The notes: a model not told the origin generated them from the letters alone. Counted from the first letter of the stretch, positions 1,049 to 14,464 are shown. The stretch is 64,000 nt of DNA from Candidatus Omnitrophota bacterium (GCA_022703585.1 JAKLDJ010000005.1:69353-133352); one strand, 5' to 3'. Numbers and translations are program-made.

Positions 1049-1097
1049 AAAAAAGTTAGGGCGGCAGCGCTTTGAGAAACTCGAAGCGCTGCCGCCC
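1049..1097 (-). terminator. Rho-independent terminator downstream of the S8 protease gene
   Basis: A 14-bp GC-rich inverted repeat (GGGCGGCAGCGCTT...AAGCGCTGCCGCCC) is followed on the minus strand by UAACUUUUUUCC. It lies about 130 nt past the protease stop. Confidence 0.5.
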
Positions 1098-1228
1098 TAA
1101 ACACTGCTTCCCACGCTTAAAAATACTGACTGCACCTGCAGTAATTGCGTATCGTGGTATTCTGCGGATTCAAAGAGATTTAGAACGAAGGTTCCGGGAC
1201 CGGAATGATAAAAGCGCAGATCCTATCC

Positions 1229-1984
1229 TTATAAGCTGCCTTGGAGATGGGTAAGAATATCGTTTTTGTCCATCGTACGCTGAGCAGAATCGGCCAATAA
1301 CTGGGCCACCTCCGCCGTTACCCGGGCACAAGCAAAAGAGGTCCCCTCCTGACCTCTTGTTTTTCCCTGGGCATAAACATCACAATGACGGCCGGAATAA
1401 CCGGCAATCTCGCCGTTTTTATTCAGCGCCCCTACCGAAATCACGTACGGACTCGAAGCGGGAAATGCCGGCTTAACGTCCTTGGAAACTTTGCAGACAT
1501 ACCCCTTCGAATCCGTCGCGAAGTGACTGGCCAGGGTCTTATTACCCCCGGCAGCAATAAACAAAACACCGTGGCTGGTGGCGGCATTGGTAATCGCGTT
1601 TTCGATCTCTTGGTCATATTTGGTAACAAGCGACATATTAACGATGCGGATATTGCGGTCCACACTCCACTGAATAGCCTTTAAAATAGCGTCCCGGGAA
1701 GGCTTAAAGTCCCCGCCGGTTTTTTCACAGACTTGCAGCATATAAATCTTAGCGGAAGGATTATTTTGTCGGATAAGCCTGGCAATCTCTGTCCCGTGGC
1801 CAAGCGGATCCTGTCTTGCCGGATAGGAGGTAAAACTTTCACCAGCGTCAACATAGGATCTCGCCCCGGAATCGATAATCGCAATACTGATTTCGTCCGC
1901 TGACAGAGACGGCCCAGCCATCACAATAAGCACCAATGCTAAGGCAAAAATCATTCCCTCAACCATCTTCTTTAATACGTTCAT
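1229..1984 (-). CDS. Secreted subtilisin-like serine peptidase (S8 family)
   Basis: 251-aa ORF with a signal peptide (MNVLKKMVEGMIFALALVLIVMAGPSLSA). It carries the catalytic triad motifs in D/H/S order: IAIIDSG (Asp), HGTEIA (His), GTSFACA (Ser). An RBS (GGAGAG) sits 7 nt upstream of the ATG. Confidence 0.85.
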   Translation of the reverse strand: MNVLKKMVEGMIFALALVLIVMAGPSLSADEISIAIIDSGARSYVDAGESFTSYPARQDPLGHGTEIARLIRQNNPSAKIYMLQVCEKTGGDFKPSRDAILKAIQWSVDRNIRIVNMSLVTKYDQEIENAITNAATSHGVLFIAAGGNKTLASHFATDSKGYVCKVSKDVKPAFPASSPYVISVGALNKNGEIAGYSGRHCDVYAQGKTRGQEGTSFACARVTAEVAQLLADSAQRTMDKNDILTHLQGSL

Positions 1985-2002
1985 CGTTTCTCTCCGAATA
2001 AG

Positions 2003-2049
2003 ACCCCAACAAAAAAGCGCCTGCTCTTATGTGCATAAGAGCAGGCGCT
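2003..2049 (-). terminator. Strong intrinsic terminator immediately upstream (about 20 nt) of the protease RBS
   Basis: A perfect 16-bp palindrome AGCGCCTGCTCTTATG/CATAAGAGCAGGCGCT is followed on the minus strand by UUUUUUGUUGG. Confidence 0.6.
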
Positions 2050-2092
2050 TAAGTTAACGGATCAAGCCTACCCGTGGCTATTCAAGCCGCGC

Positions 2093-2245
2093 AGGCGTTT
2101 TTGGCAAAAAAAACGCCTACTCGCTTAAATAAGTAGGCTCTCCGAACTCAACCGGCAACTGACTACCCGTCTCCGCATTAATCGGAGGTGTGGGCTCTAG
2201 AGTTTTGCGCCCCACGCTTTCGCGAGGTTTGCCCTTATCAATCGA
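2093..2245 (-). ncRNA. c-di-GMP-I (GEMM) riboswitch candidate: aptamer about 2135-2245 plus terminator expression platform about 2106-2138
   Basis: The minus-strand RNA reads ...AAGGGCAAACCUCGCGAAAGCGUGGGGCGCAAAACUCUAGAGCCCACACCUCCGAUUAAUGCGGAG... It contains GGGCAAACC, a GAAA tetraloop hairpin and a GGGNCGCAAA core that I recognise from the Vibrio Vc2 c-di-GMP-I aptamer (recalled from memory, not searched). It is followed by the hairpin GCCUACU..AGUAGGC plus U8. Confidence 0.6.
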
Positions 2246-2426
2246 GATTTGTTACTTAAACCAAATTGTCAATGGACCAATTTATCCCAACAATTGAAGT
2301 ATAGCCTATAAATACTCAAAAGGCAAGGCGGAGAAAAAGATTTTTATCAGGCCTATTTTAGAAACCCAAAAAGGGCCTTTTTTGGGAAAGCGCTCGTCTT
2401 TAAACAGCCGAAAAGCTCATCATGCT

Positions 2427-2852
2427 TTATTCCAGCGGCAGCTCAGGCAACTTATCCAGCAGAGGCAAAAGATAATCTTCCTCGACTTTAATGCGGCTTA
2501 ACATATCCTTGGAAAGTTGTATAAAGTCCAAGGGAAAATCCTTCGAACCTCTATCAGCCAATTCACCGGTATATTTTTCAAAAAATATGAGAAACCTGAT
2601 CTTGACCTCTTTAAGATCATGGATCAAAAACTCGATCATCTTTATGGACTGGCGGTCATTTTGATAAAAAGAACTTAGGCGCTCAAAAAGCTCTTTATCC
2701 TGGCCTCCAAAATGCGCCAGGAGCCTCTCTCGCATCTCGCAAACCCTGGGTTTCGCGGCCATATAGTTACGGGCCAAAGGCTGGATTCGGTCGATGGAGT
2801 CTACAATTGCCTGGTGGCTAACTTTCAGTCTTTCGATAAGCGCTTGGGACAT
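2427..2852 (-). CDS. Hypothetical protein (possibly a hemerythrin-like metal-binding fold)
   Basis: 141-aa ORF, co-directional with its neighbours. The sequence is helical with several His/Glu pairs (HQAIVDS, HFGGQDKE, HDLKE). I see no definitive motif. Confidence 0.5.
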   Translation of the reverse strand: MSQALIERLKVSHQAIVDSIDRIQPLARNYMAAKPRVCEMRERLLAHFGGQDKELFERLSSFYQNDRQSIKMIEFLIHDLKEVKIRFLIFFEKYTGELADRGSKDFPLDFIQLSKDMLSRIKVEEDYLLPLLDKLPELPLE

Positions 2853-2910: not shown

Positions 2911-4875
2911 TCAGAATGTCTCGATGCCATGTTCCTTTAGAACAATCAGAGTGCAGTCGTCATGCTGAGGGGCGCGGCCGATAAAAGAGCTGATTTCCTT
3001 GGTAACTTCCCTTATAAGCTGAGAAGCGCTGTCATTCTCGCAAGCGCGCATTACCGAAAATAGCCTCTCTTCGCCAAAATCCTCTCTTCGCAAATTCTTG
3101 GCTTCCACAACGCCATCCGTGTAGAGAATGACGGTATCCCCGGGATCCAAAACAGCTTCTCCTTGAGAAAATTCAACACTGTTGACAAGCCCCAGAGGGA
3201 GCCCTTCTTTCGGTTGTATCTTTTCTACGGTATGGTCCTTTTTTCTCAAAATCAACGTAGGGCAATGCCCGGCATTGGCCACTAAGATTTTATGTTCGGG
3301 AACAATATAAATGACATAGGTCGCGGTAACGAAAATACCCGGATTGGTATTTCTGACCATCTCTTCATTAAGTTGAAAAAGCAGGTCGCTAGGCTCATCG
3401 CAAATCCCGGCCAGCATGCGGAATAGCGAAATGGCCTTGGCCATGACCAGCGCCGCCGGTACGCCCTTGCCAGAAACATCCCCGATAAATACGCCCATCC
3501 GGTACTTGCCCAGGGCATACATATCGTAAAGATCGCCGCCGACATGCTTAGCCGTGACCATGCTGGTCGCGATCTCCAGGCTGCCGAACCGTTCAATGGG
3601 CGAAGGCAGAAAACTGTCCTGGATCGACTTGGCAATCGAGAGCTCTTTCTCGACGAGTTCGTGCTTTCTGTTTTCTTCTAAGAAGTTATAAATGCTCACA
3701 CCCGTATTCATAAAAATCATCATAATAAACGGGCAAAAGACATCAATCCAAATCCCCCTGGTCATAAAGATCCCGAATGCGAAAGAGACAAAGAGAAAAG
3801 AATATCCAACCGTATACGAAAAAGCGGCAATCGGCTGATTCCGCTTGCGAGACGTAGTCAGAAACACAATTCCCAGGAGAATAAAAAGAATAATCAAATT
3901 CGTCTTGGCGCTAACCCGATAGACATAACGATCCAGCAGGATACTGCTGAAAATATTTGCATGCAACCCCACCATCGGGTATTCCTTTTCCAAGGGAATC
4001 GCCTGCAAGTCCGAGGTGCCGGTAGCCGTCATGCCCACAAAACAAACCGCTCCCTTAAAATCATCCAACGGTACCCGGGGGGCCTTTTTTGCGGCCCTAT
4101 CCTGCCATGCCCCCAAAACATCCACATAAGAATAATGTTTAAACGTCTGGCGCCAGCGGCCGGCATAATTCACCAGCATCGCCCCGCTGGAAGAAGTCGG
4201 AATGGTAAGCCGCGGGCCGATGGAGACCGCGTTCCAGTGAAAAACAATATTTTCTAAAGGAATACCCAAATAATCGCAGGCCATACGTAAGGAAATATGG
4301 GGCTTAAGCTCACCGTTAAAATCGATAAACAGCGGCACCCAGCGATTCTTTCCATCCGCATCCCGATAACTATTGATATATCCGGTGGCCTTGGCGGCAT
4401 CGGCGAGTTTGGGTAAAATCGAAGCCGCCATCCCCTTGGCCTTGGGTAATTTCTTGGATTGAAGATCGCTTTCGATCCGAAGGACGTAGGGCAGGTAAAC
4501 ATTGCCGGCATCCTTAACCGAGGCGCTAAAGGCATCGTCCTCTTGTGTCGGATCCGTAAAAATAACATCGAACATCACCTGCTTGGTGCCTAAGGCCGAG
4601 AGGACATCAACGAGACTGGCGTGAAAATCGCGAGGCAAAGGCCAATAGCCCAGACTTTTTAAGGTGTCATCGGAGATTTCAATAAGGATAATTTTATCGG
4701 AGAAATTCTGGACCGGACGCAAGAAAAACCGCAGATCCAGCAAGATGTTTTCGTAAGAATCCAGCAGCCGCCAGGAAGAGGTAAGAACAACCAGGATCAG
4801 GACGAGACAGAAAAAAACAAGTTTGACAATGCGTCTTCGGAGGGATGCGTTAAACGGTAAGATTTTTGAAAACAT
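2911..4875 (-). CDS. CHASE2 sensor domain / PP2C-family (SpoIIE/RsbU-like) serine phosphatase
   Basis: 654 aa. The N-terminal ~300 aa look like a CHASE2 periplasmic sensor, followed by a hydrophobic TM block, then PP2C motifs (GDVSGKGVPAALVMA, DGVVEAKN). Confidence 0.8.
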   Translation of the reverse strand: MFSKILPFNASLRRRIVKLVFFCLVLILVVLTSSWRLLDSYENILLDLRFFLRPVQNFSDKIILIEISDDTLKSLGYWPLPRDFHASLVDVLSALGTKQVMFDVIFTDPTQEDDAFSASVKDAGNVYLPYVLRIESDLQSKKLPKAKGMAASILPKLADAAKATGYINSYRDADGKNRWVPLFIDFNGELKPHISLRMACDYLGIPLENIVFHWNAVSIGPRLTIPTSSSGAMLVNYAGRWRQTFKHYSYVDVLGAWQDRAAKKAPRVPLDDFKGAVCFVGMTATGTSDLQAIPLEKEYPMVGLHANIFSSILLDRYVYRVSAKTNLIILFILLGIVFLTTSRKRNQPIAAFSYTVGYSFLFVSFAFGIFMTRGIWIDVFCPFIMMIFMNTGVSIYNFLEENRKHELVEKELSIAKSIQDSFLPSPIERFGSLEIATSMVTAKHVGGDLYDMYALGKYRMGVFIGDVSGKGVPAALVMAKAISLFRMLAGICDEPSDLLFQLNEEMVRNTNPGIFVTATYVIYIVPEHKILVANAGHCPTLILRKKDHTVEKIQPKEGLPLGLVNSVEFSQGEAVLDPGDTVILYTDGVVEAKNLRREDFGEERLFSVMRACENDSASQLIREVTKEISSFIGRAPQHDDCTLIVLKEHGIETF

Positions 4876-4927: not shown

Positions 4928-5641
4928 TTATTTTATTGGCTTTTCTTTACCTTTATATAAAAGTTTCCAAGGATTGACCTTAACGTCAGCACTTAATTCT
5001 TCCAGATTCTTGCTGGTCGCATTTAAATTCGCCACAATCTCATCGATAGCCAAACGGTTGACCTTAAGCCGCTCATCAACATTGCCTGATATCGAAGAAA
5101 TATTCTTCATCGAAGTATTCATATTAGCGACGATATCATCGATCGCCTGGCTGTTAACCTTAAGCCGCTGGTTAATGTTTTCCGAAATCTCTTTTAAGCT
5201 GTCCGCAATCGCATCGCCTTTGGCCAGCAGGCGGTCAAAATCTATCGGCTCCTGCGCTTCAATCAAGGCATCCTGGGCTAAGAAATTTCCACCGGGGTTA
5301 CCGGCTGAAAGCTCGACATATTTCTCACCTAACATACCCATGATCTTTATAAATGCCTTGGCCCCTTCACGGATTTTGGCCTCTTCTTTAATCCATAGAG
5401 TCAACTCCATCTTGGTATCCTGGTCGTAAACAAGGCGAATATCCTTGACCGAGCCAACCTCCATACCGTTTAACCGTACGGGCGCGTTTTTTTCCAGGCC
5501 GTCAATACGATAGAAAGAAGTCTTTACCGTATAGCCCTGCTGGGTAAATTTGAAATTACCCACCTTGAAGGTTAAAAAAAGCAGCGCCGAAACCGCGATC
5601 GTTACCAGGATACCGATTTTTGCCTCATTTGTTAGCTTCAT
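4928..5641 (-). CDS. mlaD: MlaD (MCE-domain) phospholipid ABC transporter substrate-binding protein
   Basis: 237 aa with an N-terminal TM anchor, an MCE domain and a C-terminal coiled-coil repeat. It is adjacent to mlaF and mlaE. Confidence 0.8.
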   Translation of the reverse strand: MKLTNEAKIGILVTIAVSALLFLTFKVGNFKFTQQGYTVKTSFYRIDGLEKNAPVRLNGMEVGSVKDIRLVYDQDTKMELTLWIKEEAKIREGAKAFIKIMGMLGEKYVELSAGNPGGNFLAQDALIEAQEPIDFDRLLAKGDAIADSLKEISENINQRLKVNSQAIDDIVANMNTSMKNISSISGNVDERLKVNRLAIDEIVANLNATSKNLEELSADVKVNPWKLLYKGKEKPIK

Positions 5642-5656
5642 TCGTAGCTCCTTTGA

Positions 5657-6457
5657 TTATTCGGCTAGGTCTTTTAAATAATCATCGCCTTTGTCGATAA
5701 AATTAACCGGGCCTTCTGTTTCCCCGCGTATAAATTGTTGGACGATTGCATTCTTTGAATTTTTTATATCTTCGGGTGTTCCTATCTCCAGGACCCTGCC
5801 CGCGTGAAGCATCGCCACACGGTTGGCAATGCGAAAAACGCTGTTCATGTCATGGGTCACAACCACCGAAGTAATCAGCAGTTTCTTGCTTAAATCCAAA
5901 ATAAGCTTGTCGATAACGGCCGCGACAATGGGGTCAAGGCCGGCTGTAGGCTCGTCGTAAAAAACAATTTCCGGGTCCATGGCAATGGCCCGGGCAAGCC
6001 CCACCCTTTTTTTCATCCCGCCGGAGAGCATGCTCGGCATCAGATGTTCAAAACCCCTTAAACCCACAAGGCCTAATTTCATTTTCACGATGATATTGAT
6101 GATATGCGGATCCAGCTTGGTATGCTCACGCAAGGGCAAACTGACGTTATCCTCGACGCTCAACGAATCCAGAAGAGCCGAAGACTGAAAGCACATGCCA
6201 AATTTTCTTTTTGTTCTGTCCTTCTCGTCCTTGGAAAGCGTGGTCAAATCCCTGTCACCGATAAAAACCTTTCCCTTATCGGGAACCAGGGCTCCGGTCA
6301 TATGCCGCAATAAAGTACTTTTGCCACAACCTGACCCGCCCATGATAACAAAGGTTTCCCCCTGGTAGATATCCAGGTTGATGCCGTTTAAGACCTTGCG
6401 GTCTCCCAGGGTTTTATTAACATTCTGGACAGAAATGGCAACTTTTTTGTCTTCCAT
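5657..6457 (-). CDS. mlaF: MlaF ABC transporter ATP-binding protein
   Basis: Walker A GGSGCGKST, ABC signature LSGGMKKRVGLARA and Walker B FYDEP are present. Confidence 0.85.
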   Translation of the reverse strand: MEDKKVAISVQNVNKTLGDRKVLNGINLDIYQGETFVIMGGSGCGKSTLLRHMTGALVPDKGKVFIGDRDLTTLSKDEKDRTKRKFGMCFQSSALLDSLSVEDNVSLPLREHTKLDPHIINIIVKMKLGLVGLRGFEHLMPSMLSGGMKKRVGLARAIAMDPEIVFYDEPTAGLDPIVAAVIDKLILDLSKKLLITSVVVTHDMNSVFRIANRVAMLHAGRVLEIGTPEDIKNSKNAIVQQFIRGETEGPVNFIDKGDDYLKDLAE

Positions 6458-6463
6458 GTCGAC

Positions 6464-7261
6464 CTATAGGTTAGAAAAATAATAGATACCGGTTAAAACA
6501 CAGTCCGCGAGAATAATTAAAATGAAGCTCGTAACCACACTTAGAGTCGTGGCCTCGCCGACACCCACCGCTCCTTCGCGCGTCTTAATACCCTGATAAC
6601 AACCGACCAGCGAAATAATCAAAGCAAAAACAATAGATTTGGAAAGGCCGGTATAAATATCCTTAAGCGATAAAAATTTTAAGGCCGTTTGGATATACAA
6701 TGCCGAGTTGATCTTCAGATTAAAAACACCCATCAAATACCCGCCGAGCATACCCGAAAAATCCCCGATGATTGTCAGGCACGGCAACATAATCAACAGC
6801 GCCAGAACCTTGGGCGCCATAAGAAACCTGACCGGATGAATGGCCATGGTTTCTAGGGCTTCGATTTGCTCGGTAACCTTCATTGAACCGATTTCCGCGG
6901 TAATCGCCGCTCCGACCCGACCGGCGATAACAAGGGCGGTTAATACCGGCCCTAACTCGCGGCATAGGGAAATAGAGACAAGGCTAGAGACATATACCAC
7001 CGCACCGACCTGGGCCAGCTGGTAGGCCGCCTGCATCGCCAAAACAACGCCCGTAAAGAAGGTAACGAAGAAAACGATGACGATCGAGCGGATGCCCATA
7101 AAAACCATTTGCGTAAAGACGTGCGGCGTATTGAGAGGTTTTTTCTTAAAAGGGCCGACAAATATCCAATAGAGCGTCTCGGCGGAGAGCTTGGAAAAAT
7201 CAACAAGCACAAAACAGCCGTATTTTGTAAAAGCGCCTATTTTCTCAAAGAATTTAATCAT
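6464..7261 (-). CDS. mlaE: MlaE ABC transporter permease
   Basis: 265-aa polytopic protein. Conserved MlaE block: LCRELGPVLTALVIAGRVGAAITAEIGSMKVTEQIEALETMAI. Confidence 0.85.
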   Translation of the reverse strand: MIKFFEKIGAFTKYGCFVLVDFSKLSAETLYWIFVGPFKKKPLNTPHVFTQMVFMGIRSIVIVFFVTFFTGVVLAMQAAYQLAQVGAVVYVSSLVSISLCRELGPVLTALVIAGRVGAAITAEIGSMKVTEQIEALETMAIHPVRFLMAPKVLALLIMLPCLTIIGDFSGMLGGYLMGVFNLKINSALYIQTALKFLSLKDIYTGLSKSIVFALIISLVGCYQGIKTREGAVGVGEATTLSVVTSFILIILADCVLTGIYYFSNL

Positions 7262-13276: not shown

Positions 13277-14464
13277 TTAAATCTTTACACCGGGGATATC
13301 ATCGATATTGAGGCGAACACGAATATCCTTGTAAATCTCCTCCAGATTGACGCTATGGGTAGGACGGCATAGCAGGTATCCTTGCCCGGCATCAACTCCG
13401 AGGTCAATTAAGATGTCCAAGTCTTCTTTTTGCTCGATGCCTTCGGCGATGGAGATAATATTATTTTCCTTGCAAAAAGAAACGATAAACTTGACCAAGC
13501 TGCGCCGGATAGGATCGTTCTTCAAGTTTTGGATCAGATGGATATCAATCTTGACGACTGAGGGCCTTATTTCGACAATCGATTCAAGGCTGGCATAGCC
13601 CCCACCGACATCATCGATCGCAATATCAAAACCATAGTTACGATAAAACCTTAGGCGTTCATAAAAAGAATTGTAATCAGATACCAGCGAACGTTCGGTT
13701 AATTCCAGGACGATATTCTTAGGATTAACGTTATTTTTATCAAAAATCGATTTGATCTTAAAGAATTTCGGGCTTTCGACAAAAAACGGATTACAGTTTA
13801 AGAATAATCTCGCCTCTTCGGAACAACGAGGCATGGATTCCAGGGCCTTTTGCCAGGAAATCATTTCAAGATCGCAATATAAGCCGAACCGTAGCGCGGC
13901 TTTAAACAGCAGCTCGGGATTGGACAATATGCTCTTGATAGGCGGCCGGCTTAGGGCTTCGAACCCGAATATCCTGAAGGGTTTAAGGAAAAATATCGGC
14001 TGATAAAAAGGAATGACCAACTCTTCTTTGACAATCTTTTTTAACTCAAGAATAACAACCTCATTATCGCTCGTTGACTCATCAAAGAATACGCTACGGC
14101 GCAGGACCGCCTCCATCCGCGCCAGCAACTCTTCATGATCAAAAGGCTTGGTCAAATAATCATCGGCCCCCAGATAAAGGCCTTCGATTTTGTCTTCAAA
14201 CAAATATTTTACGCTAACAATAATAATGGGGATATGGCGAGTGGTTTTTCCTTCGCGCAGGCGCCGGCAGACTTCGAAACCCTCAACGTCCGGGAGAATA
14301 AGATCCAATAAAATTAAATCCGGCTTGGTCATGGCTTTCTCTATAGCCGCCGAGCCGGAATCTGCAATGTCTACCTCATAGCCTCTGGTTTCCAATATGA
14401 GGGACATCATTTGGGCGATATTTCTTTCGTCATCAACGATAAGTACGCGTTTCTTGTTCGTCAT
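13277..14464 (-). CDS. Response regulator receiver + EAL domain protein (c-di-GMP phosphodiesterase)
   Basis: 395 aa. REC domain (VLIVDDE, phospho-acceptor in DLILPD) plus EAL motifs (FEALSRP, ELTERS, IAIDDVGGGYASL, IKIDIHLI, AEGIE). Confidence 0.85.
   Translation of the reverse strand: MTNKKRVLIVDDERNIAQMMSLILETRGYEVDIADSGSAAIEKAMTKPDLILLDLILPDVEGFEVCRRLREGKTTRHIPIIIVSVKYLFEDKIEGLYLGADDYLTKPFDHEELLARMEAVLRRSVFFDESTSDNEVVILELKKIVKEELVIPFYQPIFFLKPFRIFGFEALSRPPIKSILSNPELLFKAALRFGLYCDLEMISWQKALESMPRCSEEARLFLNCNPFFVESPKFFKIKSIFDKNNVNPKNIVLELTERSLVSDYNSFYERLRFYRNYGFDIAIDDVGGGYASLESIVEIRPSVVKIDIHLIQNLKNDPIRRSLVKFIVSFCKENNIISIAEGIEQKEDLDILIDLGVDAGQGYLLCRPTHSVNLEEIYKDIRVRLNIDDIPGVKI

What the first reader, a model, noticed from the sequence alone, without database searches (positions are those of the whole stretch)
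2003..2260. c-di-GMP-I (GEMM) riboswitch candidate and two stacked terminators gate a secreted subtilisin-like protease
Between the stop of the 2427..2852 gene and the S8 protease start lies about 440 nt of non-coding DNA. On the transcribed (minus) strand it contains a structured element that I read as a c-di-GMP-I aptamer. The sequence is GGGCAAACC-GAAA-tetraloop hairpin-GUGGGGCGCAAAAC, followed by a P3-like CCUCCG...CGGAG stem. The next element is a hairpin+U8 terminator at about 2106-2138. A second, very strong terminator follows: a 16-bp perfect palindrome plus U6 at 2003-2049. This second terminator ends only about 20 nt before the protease RBS. The protease gene can therefore only be expressed by read-through. 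That is the signature of riboswitch or attenuation control. The window also encodes an EAL phosphodiesterase response regulator (13277..14464). This suggests c-di-GMP-dependent control of an extracellular protease. The role of the second terminator is unclear. It could be a second, tandem regulatory element, or the actual expression platform forming alternative pairings with the GGCGUUUUUUUUGCCAAAAACGCC segment between the two.
Basis: partly seen in the sequence, partly recalled or inferred. Interest (0 to 1): 0.7.

Follow-up and report, generated by a model that had tools for sequence, protein, structure and literature searches.

The report
c-di-GMP riboswitch with two terminators
A genuine c-di-GMP-sensing RNA switch sits in front of a small secreted protease gene in an uncultivated Omnitrophota bacterium and most likely shuts the gene off at high c-di-GMP using two transcription stop signals in a row; the switch class is well known, the double stop is unusual but has a precedent.

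Summary
Rfam's c-di-GMP-I model (RF01051) hits 2151..2243 on the minus strand at 57 bits, above the gathering score of 35. It is the only Rfam hit in the 64 kb window. Two intrinsic terminators follow. T1 is at 2138-2115 with U8. T2 is at 2050-2015, a 16-bp stem with U6 that ends 16 nt before the GGAGAG ribosome-binding site of a 251-aa signal-peptide S8 protease.

The window is from a Candidatus Omnitrophota MAG. A canonical or insertion-bearing copy of the same aptamer precedes the orthologous protease in every relative examined. Its helices covary, and the G20/A47/C92 ligand-contact positions are invariant. Most relatives also carry two terminators.

Folding predicts that the 5' arm of both terminators pairs with the aptamer strand GAUAAGGGC, which includes the G20 equivalent. 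This points to an OFF switch: free RNA forms an antiterminator and ligand-bound RNA terminates. A sister clade reaches the same logic through a different, much stronger antiterminator.

Precedents exist: the dual-terminator riboswitch Bc1, and Cdi-1-12 controlling the ZmpI protease in C. difficile. This is a new member of a known kind, of moderate interest.

The parts
2298..2326 (-). Predicted sigma-70-type promoter, TTGCCT-17 nt-TATACT, with the -35 box at 2326-2321 and the -10 box at 2303-2298
   Evidence: Promoter scan, 9 of 12 matches. The same TTGCC(T/A) or TTGACA -17- TATACT arrangement is seen 17-60 nt upstream of P1 in the orthologous loci whose upstream sequence was retrieved.
2265..2273 (-). 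Conserved palindrome ATTGACAAT in the transcribed leader between the -10 box and the aptamer. It may be an operator or part of a 5' hairpin.
   Evidence: Read. TTGACAATT-like motifs occur at the same relative place in WIN, L001, L002, L003, L083, L084, L085, L087 and L093. Its function was not tested.
2147..2246 (-). c-di-GMP-I (GEMM-I) aptamer. P1 pairs 2246-2239 with 2154-2147. J1/2 is 2238-2233, with the G20 equivalent at G2233. P2 carries a GAAA tetraloop. P3 includes the CCUCCG/CGGAG tip.
   Evidence: RF01051 at 57 bits against a gathering score of 35. Alignment to the consensus structure. Across 12 orthologous aptamers, 94% of cells pair and 9 pairs show compensatory changes, with 0 of 500 shuffles as good.
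2230..2240 (-). Aptamer strand (UUGAUAAGGGCA) predicted to act as the shared antiterminator partner of the T1 and T2 5' arms
   Evidence: Base-pair probabilities on nascent RNA. The reverse-complement relation to the terminator-arm motif was also found by pattern search at 2227-2238. Duplex energies are -8.0 kcal/mol for T1 and -11.8 for T2, against -6.0 +/- 2.3 for 142 natural terminators.
2106..2138 (-). Terminator T1: stem GCCUACUU/GAGUAGGC at 2138-2115 with an 8-nt loop, then G and U8 at 2113-2106
   Evidence: Terminator scan. Hairpin dG is -10.5 kcal/mol. A positional and sequence homologue (GCCUACUCUUAU...) is present in L082, L002, L003, L083, L084, L085, L087, L088 and L095.
2094..2117 (-). 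Hairpin GGCGUUUUU/AAAAACGCC, which overlaps the T1 3' arm and its U tract. It is specific to this genome and L082.
   Evidence: It is absent from the other orthologous leaders.
2066..2096 (-). Middle hairpin GCCUGC...GUAGGC without a U tract, which may be a decayed third copy of the terminator hairpin
   Evidence: Read. In L082 the 5' arm changes to GUCUAC and pairing is kept through wobble and A-U pairs. In the full-length MFE, 2071-2066 pairs with the T1 5' arm.
2011..2050 (-). Terminator T2: 16-bp perfect stem at 2050-2015 with a 4-nt loop, and a U6 run at 2016-2011
   Evidence: Terminator scan. Hairpin dG is -27.2 kcal/mol. A hairpin plus U tract ending 16-31 nt before the start codon is present in most orthologous loci, including those with a single terminator.
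1990..1995 (-). Ribosome-binding site GGAGAG
   Evidence: Read. UUUUGGAGA directly after the proximal terminator recurs in the orthologous leaders.
1229..1984 (-). S8 (subtilisin-like) serine protease of 251 aa, with an N-terminal signal-peptide-like segment and no propeptide
   Evidence: Pfam PF00082, E = 1.2e-21. D38, H63 and S216 are invariant and N148 is nearly invariant in 47 orthologues. The sequence is 100% identical to an Omnitrophota MAG protein. The best sub-threshold NCBIfam match is QhpE. The signal peptide is read from the sequence (MNVLKKMVEGMIFALALVLIVMAGPSLSA/DE) and is an inference.
1049..1100 (-). Long GC-rich hairpin plus U run downstream of the protease stop. It is the likely terminator of the monocistronic protease transcript.
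   Evidence: Read (UUAGGGCGGCAGCGCUU...AAGCGCUGCCGCCCUAA CUUUUUU). A separate promoter-like site at 1017-989, with 10 of 12 matches and a TG extension, precedes the next gene.

Best explanation
This is a canonical class I c-di-GMP riboswitch working as a transcriptional OFF switch on a monocistronic gene for a small secreted S8 protease.

Transcription starts at the conserved promoter (2326-2298). The aptamer (2246-2147) is made first.

Without c-di-GMP, the aptamer's 5' strand UUGAUAAGGGC is available. This strand comprises the top of P1, J1/2 with the G20 equivalent, and the base of P2. It pairs with the 5' arm and loop of the emerging terminator (GCC..CUUAUU in T1, UGCUCUUAU.CA in T2). The terminator hairpin then cannot nucleate and RNA polymerase reads through.

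With c-di-GMP bound, that strand is locked inside the aptamer. T1 and T2 fold and transcription stops at U8 (2113-2106) or U6 (2016-2011), so the protease is not made.

Both terminators appear to use the same aptamer strand as antiterminator. The single aptamer is therefore consulted twice, which should lower leak and sharpen the response.

Shown by tools: aptamer membership, conservation and covariation, the existence and conservation of the terminators, and the complementarity.
Inferred: ligand binding, the direction of control, kinetic competition, ligand dependence of T2, and secretion of the protease.
For: Aptamer identity and conservation
- RF01051 scores 57 bits against a gathering score of 35.
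- G20, A47 and C92 equivalents are present here and invariant in 12 orthologous aptamers (alignment A2 columns 14, 41 and 100).
- Helices pair in 94% of cells, with 9 pairs showing double changes and 0 of 500 shuffles as good. Slid controls pair in only 25-49% of cells.
- Canonical Rfam hits lie upstream of the orthologous protease in L001-L004, L083, L085, L088, L089, L091 and L092.
- Insertion-bearing copies lie there in L084, L087, L090 and L095.

Antiterminator pairing
- On nascent RNA ending just before each terminator's 3' arm, the 5' arm pairs with aptamer nucleotides G8-C16. This holds for T1 in 11 of 11 loci of this clade. It also holds for T2 in 7 of the 8 loci with a scored T2, and partially in L087.
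- Before the 3' arm exists, this alternative fold is 1-13 kcal/mol more stable than the apo aptamer fold in most loci.
- The duplexes average -9.9 kcal/mol, against -6.0 for 142 other terminators from the same genomes (Mann-Whitney p = 1.3e-7, not corrected for relatedness).
- L092 has aptamer G13->A matched by arm C->U.
- The sister clade (L001, L004, L091, L093) has a terminator whose 5' arm pairs with the P2 3' strand at -21 to -28 kcal/mol. That is stronger than the terminator hairpin itself (-14 to -21.5) and is an unambiguous OFF design.

Other support
- Growing-chain MFE for the window gives the order P1 -> AT1 -> T1 -> P1 again -> AT2 -> T2.
- Against L082, substitutions fall in loops and spacers, not in the stems.
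- The terminator-arm motif is not a genome-wide repeat.
- Precedents: class I switches in C. difficile are mostly OFF, and one represses the secreted protease ZmpI (PMC6200980). Bc1 has a dual terminator (PMC11218506).
Against: - Nothing here measures ligand binding or termination.
- T1 antiterminator duplexes are individually weak (-5.7 to -9.9 kcal/mol). They fall within the upper 8-49% of natural terminators, and per-locus shuffles reach the observed pairing in up to 40% of cases.
- Once the 3' arm is present, aptamer plus terminator is the global MFE in nearly all loci. The antiterminator can therefore act only kinetically.
- In the window, T2 (-27.2 kcal/mol, 16 bp) is far stronger than its antiterminator (-11.8). 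Its lower 7 bp (AAGCGCC/GGCGCUU) are not covered by the antiterminator, so T2 might terminate regardless of ligand, as reported for T2 of Bc1.
- The aptamer strand is nearly invariant within the clade, so true covariation for the antiterminator rests on one substitution (L092) and on the clade-level switch.
- The loci are related, so the p-values overstate independence.
Confidence: 0.7

Rival explanations
1. Only one terminator is ligand-responsive. The other is a constitutive attenuator that merely lowers basal expression, as reported for T2 of the B. thuringiensis Bc1 riboswitch. The riboswitch is still an OFF switch, but the second hairpin is not a second checkpoint.
For: - Bc1's T2 stays folded with or without c-di-GMP (PMC11218506).
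- In the window, T2 is a 16-bp, -27.2 kcal/mol hairpin against an -11.8 kcal/mol antiterminator.
- T1 antiterminators are individually not distinguishable from background.
- Single-terminator relatives (L001, L090, L092, L093) show that one terminator is sufficient.
Against: - Both arms carry the same C(Y)CUUAU motif, complementary to the same aptamer strand, in 7-8 loci. This includes loop nucleotides that a plain terminator has no reason to conserve.
- RBS-proximal terminators have the strongest complementarity, lying in the top 0-3.5% of background in WIN, L003, L084, L085, L087 and L089.
Confidence: 0.25
2. ON switch: c-di-GMP binding prevents termination, so the protease is induced at high c-di-GMP.
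For: Some class I c-di-GMP riboswitches activate expression, for example Cdi-1-1 in C. difficile. No experiment here fixes the direction.
Against: - Neither terminator shares nucleotides with the aptamer's P1 3' strand. The terminators lie 8 nt and more than 95 nt downstream of P1 and are free to fold whenever the aptamer is folded.
- Every predicted alternative pairing disrupts the aptamer, not the terminator-competent state.
Confidence: 0.05
3. The protease is expressed independently of the riboswitch, from a promoter or processing site downstream of T2. The aptamer-terminator unit would then be a stand-alone small RNA or a c-di-GMP sponge.
For: Terminated riboswitch transcripts of about 185 and 280 nt would accumulate. 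This cannot be excluded without transcript mapping.
Against: - Only 26 nt separate the T2 U tract from the ATG, and the scan finds no promoter-like site there.
- The U tract abuts the ribosome-binding site in most orthologous leaders.
- The aptamer stays linked to the protease gene even where the upstream genes differ (L088, L089, L090, L091).
Confidence: 0.04

Closest known systems
c-di-GMP-I (GEMM-I) riboswitch, Rfam RF01051, with Vibrio cholerae Vc2 as prototype
   Same: - It has the same three-helix aptamer with a GAAA tetraloop in P2.
- The G20/A47/C92 ligand-contact equivalents are present.
- The score is above the curated threshold.
- It lies in a 5' UTR on the sense strand.
   Different: - The host is an uncultivated Omnitrophota bacterium.
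- P1 is extended to 8 bp.
- The expression platform has two intrinsic terminators.
- Ligand binding is untested.
Bc1 c-di-GMP-I riboswitch of Bacillus thuringiensis (dual terminator expression platform; PMC11218506)
   Same: One class I aptamer is followed by two rho-independent terminators in a single expression platform, with T2 close to the ribosome-binding site. The arrangement is conserved within its clade.
   Different: - In Bc1, c-di-GMP unfolds T1 and T2 is ligand-insensitive, so the downstream genes do not respond.
- Here both terminator arms are complementary to the same aptamer strand and the logic is OFF.
- Spacing is 28 bp in Bc1. Here about 55 nt separate the T1 U tract from the T2 stem.
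- The phylum and the regulated gene are unrelated.
Cdi-1-12 class I riboswitch upstream of zmpI (PPEP-1) in Clostridioides difficile (PMC6200980)
   Same: A class I c-di-GMP riboswitch acts as an OFF switch on a secreted protease, so protease falls when c-di-GMP is high.
   Different: - ZmpI is a zinc metalloprotease and this protein is an S8 serine protease.
- The substrates here are unknown.
- Cdi-1-12 is not reported to have a dual terminator in the text read.
Tandem riboswitches (two complete aptamer-plus-terminator units in series)
   Same: There are two sequential termination decisions before one gene. From general knowledge of tandem TPP and glycine systems, this should give a steeper response.
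   Different: Only the terminator is duplicated, not the aptamer. The single aptamer strand would have to be reused.

Membership tests
c-di-GMP-I riboswitch (RF01051) | Covariance-model score at or above Rfam's gathering score | tested here: met
   57 bits against 35, E = 1.7e-8, full-length match 1-87.
c-di-GMP-I riboswitch (RF01051) | P1/P2/P3 architecture maintained in evolution (covariation) | tested here: met
   Across 12 orthologous aptamers, 94.1% of cells pair and 9 pairs show changes on both sides, with 0 of 500 shuffles as good. Slid controls pair in 25-49% of cells. P1 varies only by one-sided (wobble) changes.
c-di-GMP-I riboswitch (RF01051) | Ligand-contacting nucleotides G20, A47 and C92 (Vc2 numbering; the assignment of these positions is from my own knowledge of the Vc2 structure) | tested here: met
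   G2233 lies immediately 5' of the P2 base pair. An A follows GCGC. A C lies in the UUGC-C junction (alignment). All three are invariant in alignment A2 at columns 14, 41 and 100.
c-di-GMP-I riboswitch (RF01051) | Binds c-di-GMP and changes structure | not testable with these tools
   Needs in-line probing, ITC or SHAPE with and without ligand.
c-di-GMP-I-GGC variant (RF03167) | Score at or above the gathering score, and G at the position equivalent to A47 | tested here: not met
   The score is 56.1 bits, below the gathering score of 59. The window has A where the variant consensus has G (ACGCGAA against GCGCAAA), shown as a mismatch. Some orthologues exceed 59 bits, but they too read GCAAA.
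3',3'-cGAMP riboswitch (GEMM-Ib) | A at position 20 instead of G (from my own knowledge of the Geobacter studies) | tested here: not met
   G is present at the position-20 equivalent in the window and in all 12 aligned orthologues.
Intrinsic (rho-independent) terminator | GC-rich hairpin immediately followed by a U run on the transcribed strand | tested here: met
   T1 has 8 bp (4 GC) followed by G and U8. T2 has 16 bp (8 GC) and U6. Termination activity itself was not tested.
Transcriptional OFF riboswitch (antiterminator/terminator exchange) | A strand needed for the aptamer can alternatively pair with the terminator's 5' arm | tested here: met
   Predicted pairing of 2239-2231 with 2138-2128 (T1), and of 2240-2230 with 2043-2032 (T2). 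The same register is found in the orthologues. The evidence is computational only.
Dual-terminator expression platform (Bc1-like) | Two rho-independent terminators downstream of a single aptamer and before the start codon | tested here: met
   The arrangement is shared by WIN, L082, L002, L003, L083, L084, L085, L087, L089 and L095.
Dual-terminator expression platform (Bc1-like) | T2 insensitive to ligand, with opposite effects on transcription and translation | not testable with these tools
   Complementarity of the T2 arm to the aptamer argues for ligand sensitivity. Experiments are needed.
Peptidase S8 (subtilase) | Pfam PF00082 match and an Asp/His/Ser catalytic triad | tested here: met
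   77.8 bits against a cut-off of 21.8. D38, H63 and S216 are invariant and N148 is nearly invariant in 47 orthologues.

The most novel reading that the evidence does not exclude
One aptamer controls two successive intrinsic terminators by reusing the same 5' strand (UUGAUAAGGGC) as antiterminator for both. Between T1 and T2 the aptamer can refold and sample c-di-GMP a second time. This would be a two-checkpoint switch built by duplicating only the terminator, conserved across a clade of Omnitrophota. It would differ from tandem riboswitches, in which the aptamer is duplicated, and from Bc1, whose T2 is ligand-blind.
Probability: 0.35. Interest if true: 0.6.

Novelty: new member of a known kind. 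Interest (0 to 1): 0.42.

Why it matters
Omnitrophota are uncultivated, often ultra-small bacteria whose signalling is almost unknown. I found no paper in the searched library linking them to c-di-GMP riboswitches.

A conserved class I riboswitch in front of a conserved small secreted subtilase gives a concrete, testable link between c-di-GMP and extracellular proteolysis in this phylum. The link parallels the ZmpI circuit of C. difficile.

The leader also offers a compact natural test of whether duplicating only a terminator, while keeping one aptamer, sharpens or tightens a riboswitch response. That question bears on riboswitch design. It also bears on the puzzling dual terminator of Bc1.

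Tried and rejected
- **GGC variant.** The RF03167 model scored almost as high as RF01051 (56.1 bits). I rejected it because the score is below its gathering score and the defining G47 is an A.
- **cGAMP (GEMM-Ib).** Rejected because position 20 is G.
- **Genome-wide repeat.** I asked whether the T1/T2 arm motif GCCTRCYCTTAT is a REP-like repeat or a generic terminator. It is not: only T2 matches exactly in 64 kb, and the one notable near-match is the aptamer strand itself in reverse complement.
- **Relay model.** I considered T1's 3' arm acting as antiterminator for T2. It is not needed, because in the predicted folds the T2 arm pairs with the aptamer strand while T1 is closed.
It is present only in WIN and L082.
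- **Other Rfam families.** Weak hits over the terminators (trpB motif, PyrR, microRNAs, 15-26 bits) are all far below their thresholds and reflect hairpins only.
- **Alignment-based covariation test of the antiterminator.** Abandoned because the aptamer strand is almost invariant within the clade.
- **Database scans.** The metagenome scan with the protease profile returned mostly unrelated subtilases; only L002-L004 were orthologues. The genome scan gave one locus.
- **Literature.** Searches for 'tandem terminators' with c-di-GMP riboswitch, and for subtilisin with c-di-GMP riboswitch, found nothing relevant.

Full report
**What is in the sequence**

On the minus strand, the gap between the hemerythrin-domain gene (2427..2852) and the protease gene (1229..1984) contains the following elements in order:
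- a promoter-like site, TTGCCT-17-TATACT, at 2326-2298;
- a short leader holding the palindrome ATTGACAAT (2273-2265);
- a structured element at 2246-2147;
- hairpin T1 (2138-2115) followed by G and U8 (2113-2106);
- two further hairpins without a U tract (2117-2094 and 2096-2066);
- hairpin T2, a perfect 16-bp stem (2050-2015) with U6 (2016-2011);
- GGAGAG (1995-1990);
- ATG (1984).

**Is it a c-di-GMP-I aptamer?**

Yes. A scan of the whole window against all 4227 Rfam families at curated thresholds gave a single hit. It was RF01051 at 2151..2243 (-), 57 bits against a gathering score of 35, covering the full model.

In a more permissive scan, the related variant model c-di-GMP-I-GGC scored 56.1. 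That is below its own threshold of 59, and the window has A where the variant needs G. Reading the alignment, the equivalents of G20, A47 and C92 of the Vc2 prototype are G, A and C. The assignment of those positions is from my own knowledge of the Vc2 structure. The expected ligand is therefore c-di-GMP, not cGAMP.

**Origin and conservation**

The protease is 100% identical to a protein of a Candidatus Omnitrophota MAG. It has about 48 orthologues at 44-84% identity, and those with a source name are all from Omnitrophota.

I retrieved 17 orthologous loci, two of them duplicates.
- A canonical c-di-GMP-I hit lies directly upstream of the protease gene in L001-L004, L083, L085, L088, L089, L091 and L092. 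The L093 leader carries the same aptamer by sequence.
- L082 is cut by the contig end but aligns to the window from mid-aptamer onwards.
- L084, L087, L090 and L095 carry the same aptamer interrupted by a 60-90-nt insertion. This drops three of them to 25-35 bits, just under threshold.

An RNAalifold consensus of 12 uninterrupted aptamers recovers P2 and P3. With an 8-bp P1 added, 94% of cells pair and 9 pairs show compensatory double changes. No shuffle out of 500 does as well, and slid controls fall to 25-49% paired. The three ligand-contact positions are invariant.

The link to the protease persists where the upstream genes differ. In many loci the neighbourhood is CHASE2-PP2C phosphatase, then hemerythrin, then the leader, then the S8 protease, then a FecR-domain protein, then a beta-barrel protein.

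**The terminators**

A uniform hairpin-plus-U-run search of all leaders shows three things.
- A terminator ending 16-31 nt before the start codon, with its U tract abutting GGAG, is present in most loci.
- A second terminator 40-90 nt further upstream is present in WIN, L082, L002, L003, L083, L084, L085 and L089. L087 and L095 also carry two such terminators, both lying further from the start codon.
- L001, L090, L092 and L093 have only the proximal one.

The window's T2 is therefore the positional equivalent of the universal terminator, and T1 is the extra one.

T1 and T2 arms share the motif GCCU(A/G)C(U/C)CUUAU. The motif is not a repeat elsewhere in the window. Between the window and its 84% relative L082, substitutions fall in loops and spacers while the stems stay intact or change by wobble.

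**How it most likely works**

I folded each nascent RNA up to the point just before a terminator's 3' arm exists and asked what the 5' arm pairs with.
- In all 11 loci of the window's clade, the T1 arm pairs with aptamer nucleotides GAUAAGGGC. This strand comprises the top of P1, J1/2 including the G20 equivalent, and the base of P2.
- In 7 of the 8 loci with a scored T2, the T2 arm pairs with the same strand while T1 is closed. L087 does so only in part.
- In the window the pairs are 2138-2136 and 2133-2128 with 2231-2239 (T1), and 2043-2035 and 2033-2032 with 2230-2240 (T2).

At that stage the alternative fold beats the apo aptamer by 1-13 kcal/mol in most loci. Once the 3' arm is present, aptamer plus terminator is the global minimum. 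Control must therefore be kinetic, as is usual for transcriptional riboswitches.

Against 142 other terminator-like hairpins from the same genomes, the duplexes are stronger: mean -9.9 against -6.0 kcal/mol, p = 1.3e-7. This is driven mainly by the RBS-proximal terminators. Window T2 is -11.8, in the top 2%, and L085 T2 is -18.7. T1 duplexes are individually unremarkable, and composition-preserving shuffles often pair to the purine-rich strand too.

Two observations go beyond conservation.
- L092 has G->A in the aptamer strand, matched by C->U in its terminator arm.
- The sister clade (L001, L004, L091, L093) has AAAAGGC in place of AUAAGGGC. It uses a different solution with the same logic. 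Its terminator 5' arm is complementary to the P2 3' strand plus GGGGCGC at -21 to -28 kcal/mol, which is stronger than the terminator itself.

Neither terminator overlaps the P1 3' strand, so a folded, ligand-bound aptamer leaves both free to form. The direction is therefore OFF at high c-di-GMP.

A growing-chain MFE series for the window gives the order P1, then AT1, then T1, then P1 re-formed (3' end at 2060), then AT2, then T2. This is what a two-checkpoint switch would need. It is a thermodynamic sketch, not a kinetic simulation.

**Caveats**
- There is no measurement of binding or termination.
- The window's T2 is much stronger than its antiterminator, and its lower 7 bp are not covered. 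T2 may therefore be partly or wholly constitutive.
It may help release the aptamer strand after T1, but that is speculation.

**Comparison with what is known**
- The aptamer is a regular member of RF01051.
- A dual terminator behind a class I c-di-GMP aptamer has been described for Bc1 of B. thuringiensis. There T1 unfolds with ligand, T2 does not respond, and the authors call such platforms rarely seen (PMC11218506).
- A class I OFF switch repressing a secreted protease is known from C. difficile, as Cdi-1-12 and ZmpI (PMC6200980).
- I found no paper on these elements in Omnitrophota or upstream of subtilases.

**The protease**

It has 251 aa, a hydrophobic N-terminus ending SLSA/DE, no propeptide, the Pfam S8 domain, and an invariant D38/H63/S216 triad. 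Its nearest named families are small processing subtilases (QhpE, mycosin), at sub-threshold scores. Its nearest solved structures are subtilisins at E about 1e-10. Secretion and substrates are inferred or unknown.

A long hairpin with a U run (about 1100-1049) and a separate promoter-like site (1017-989) suggest that the protease transcript is monocistronic here.

**Verdict**

The element is a new member of a known riboswitch class in an unstudied phylum, most likely an OFF switch. The two terminators with a shared antiterminator strand are its most interesting feature, and that feature is supported only computationally.

Confidence by claim:
- about 0.95 that it is a c-di-GMP-I aptamer;
- about 0.8 that it is an OFF transcriptional switch on the protease;
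- about 0.35-0.45 that both terminators are ligand-gated.

Noticed in passing
L084 2221-2396; L090 2277-2429; L087 about 2119-2275; L095 about 60-190: Four orthologous leaders carry the same GEMM-I aptamer with a 60-90-nt insertion between the GGG(A/G)C strand of P2 and GCAAA, which is inside the P2 internal loop. The insertion is predicted to form two extra hairpins, the second often with a GAAA loop. These copies score 25-35 bits, just under Rfam's threshold, so standard annotation would miss them.
   Followed up: partly
window 2265-2273 (-), and the equivalent place in L001, L002, L003, L083, L084, L085, L087, L093: The palindrome ATTGACAAT (TTGACAATT-like) is conserved between the -10 box and the aptamer. 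It could be a binding site for a dimeric regulator acting on the same promoter. In the window it could instead be half of a 5' leader hairpin (AAUUGUU/GACAAUU).
   Followed up: partly
L001, L004, L091, L093 leaders (for example L093 about 370-403 in the extracted leader): In the sister clade, the terminator's 3' arm (GAAAGAAUAGGCGC) is a near copy of the aptamer's P2 3' strand (GAAAGAAUGGGGCGC). This gives a very strong strand-swap antiterminator (-21 to -28 kcal/mol). It is a different structural solution to the same OFF logic upstream of the same gene family.
   Followed up: yes
window 2911-4875 and 2427-2852 (-); L083-L087, L092: A CHASE2-PP2C (SpoIIE-type) phosphatase gene and a small hemerythrin-domain gene lie immediately upstream of the riboswitch-protease unit in many orthologous loci. 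A FecR-domain gene and a BBP2-like beta-barrel gene usually follow the protease. In the window the FecR-domain gene is absent, and a barrel-like gene without a Pfam hit starts at 949.
   Followed up: partly
L092 4167-4226 (+): A second c-di-GMP-I hit (43.3 bits) lies about 2.4 kb downstream of the protease in this relative, near the contig end. These genomes may therefore carry several GEMM-I elements. The 64-kb window has only one.
   Followed up: no
window 1990-2003 (-): The sequence GUCUUAUUCGGAGAG, which spans the ribosome-binding site, is complementary to the aptamer 5' strand CUCGAUUGAUAAG and pairs with it in the full-length MFE. The complementarity is not kept in L082, so it is probably chance.
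   Followed up: partly
window 13277-14464 (-) and 4928-7261 (-): The REC-EAL response regulator is confirmed, so a c-di-GMP phosphodiesterase is encoded 11 kb away. An MlaF/MlaE/MlaD-type lipid transport operon lies just upstream of the CHASE2 gene.
   Followed up: partly
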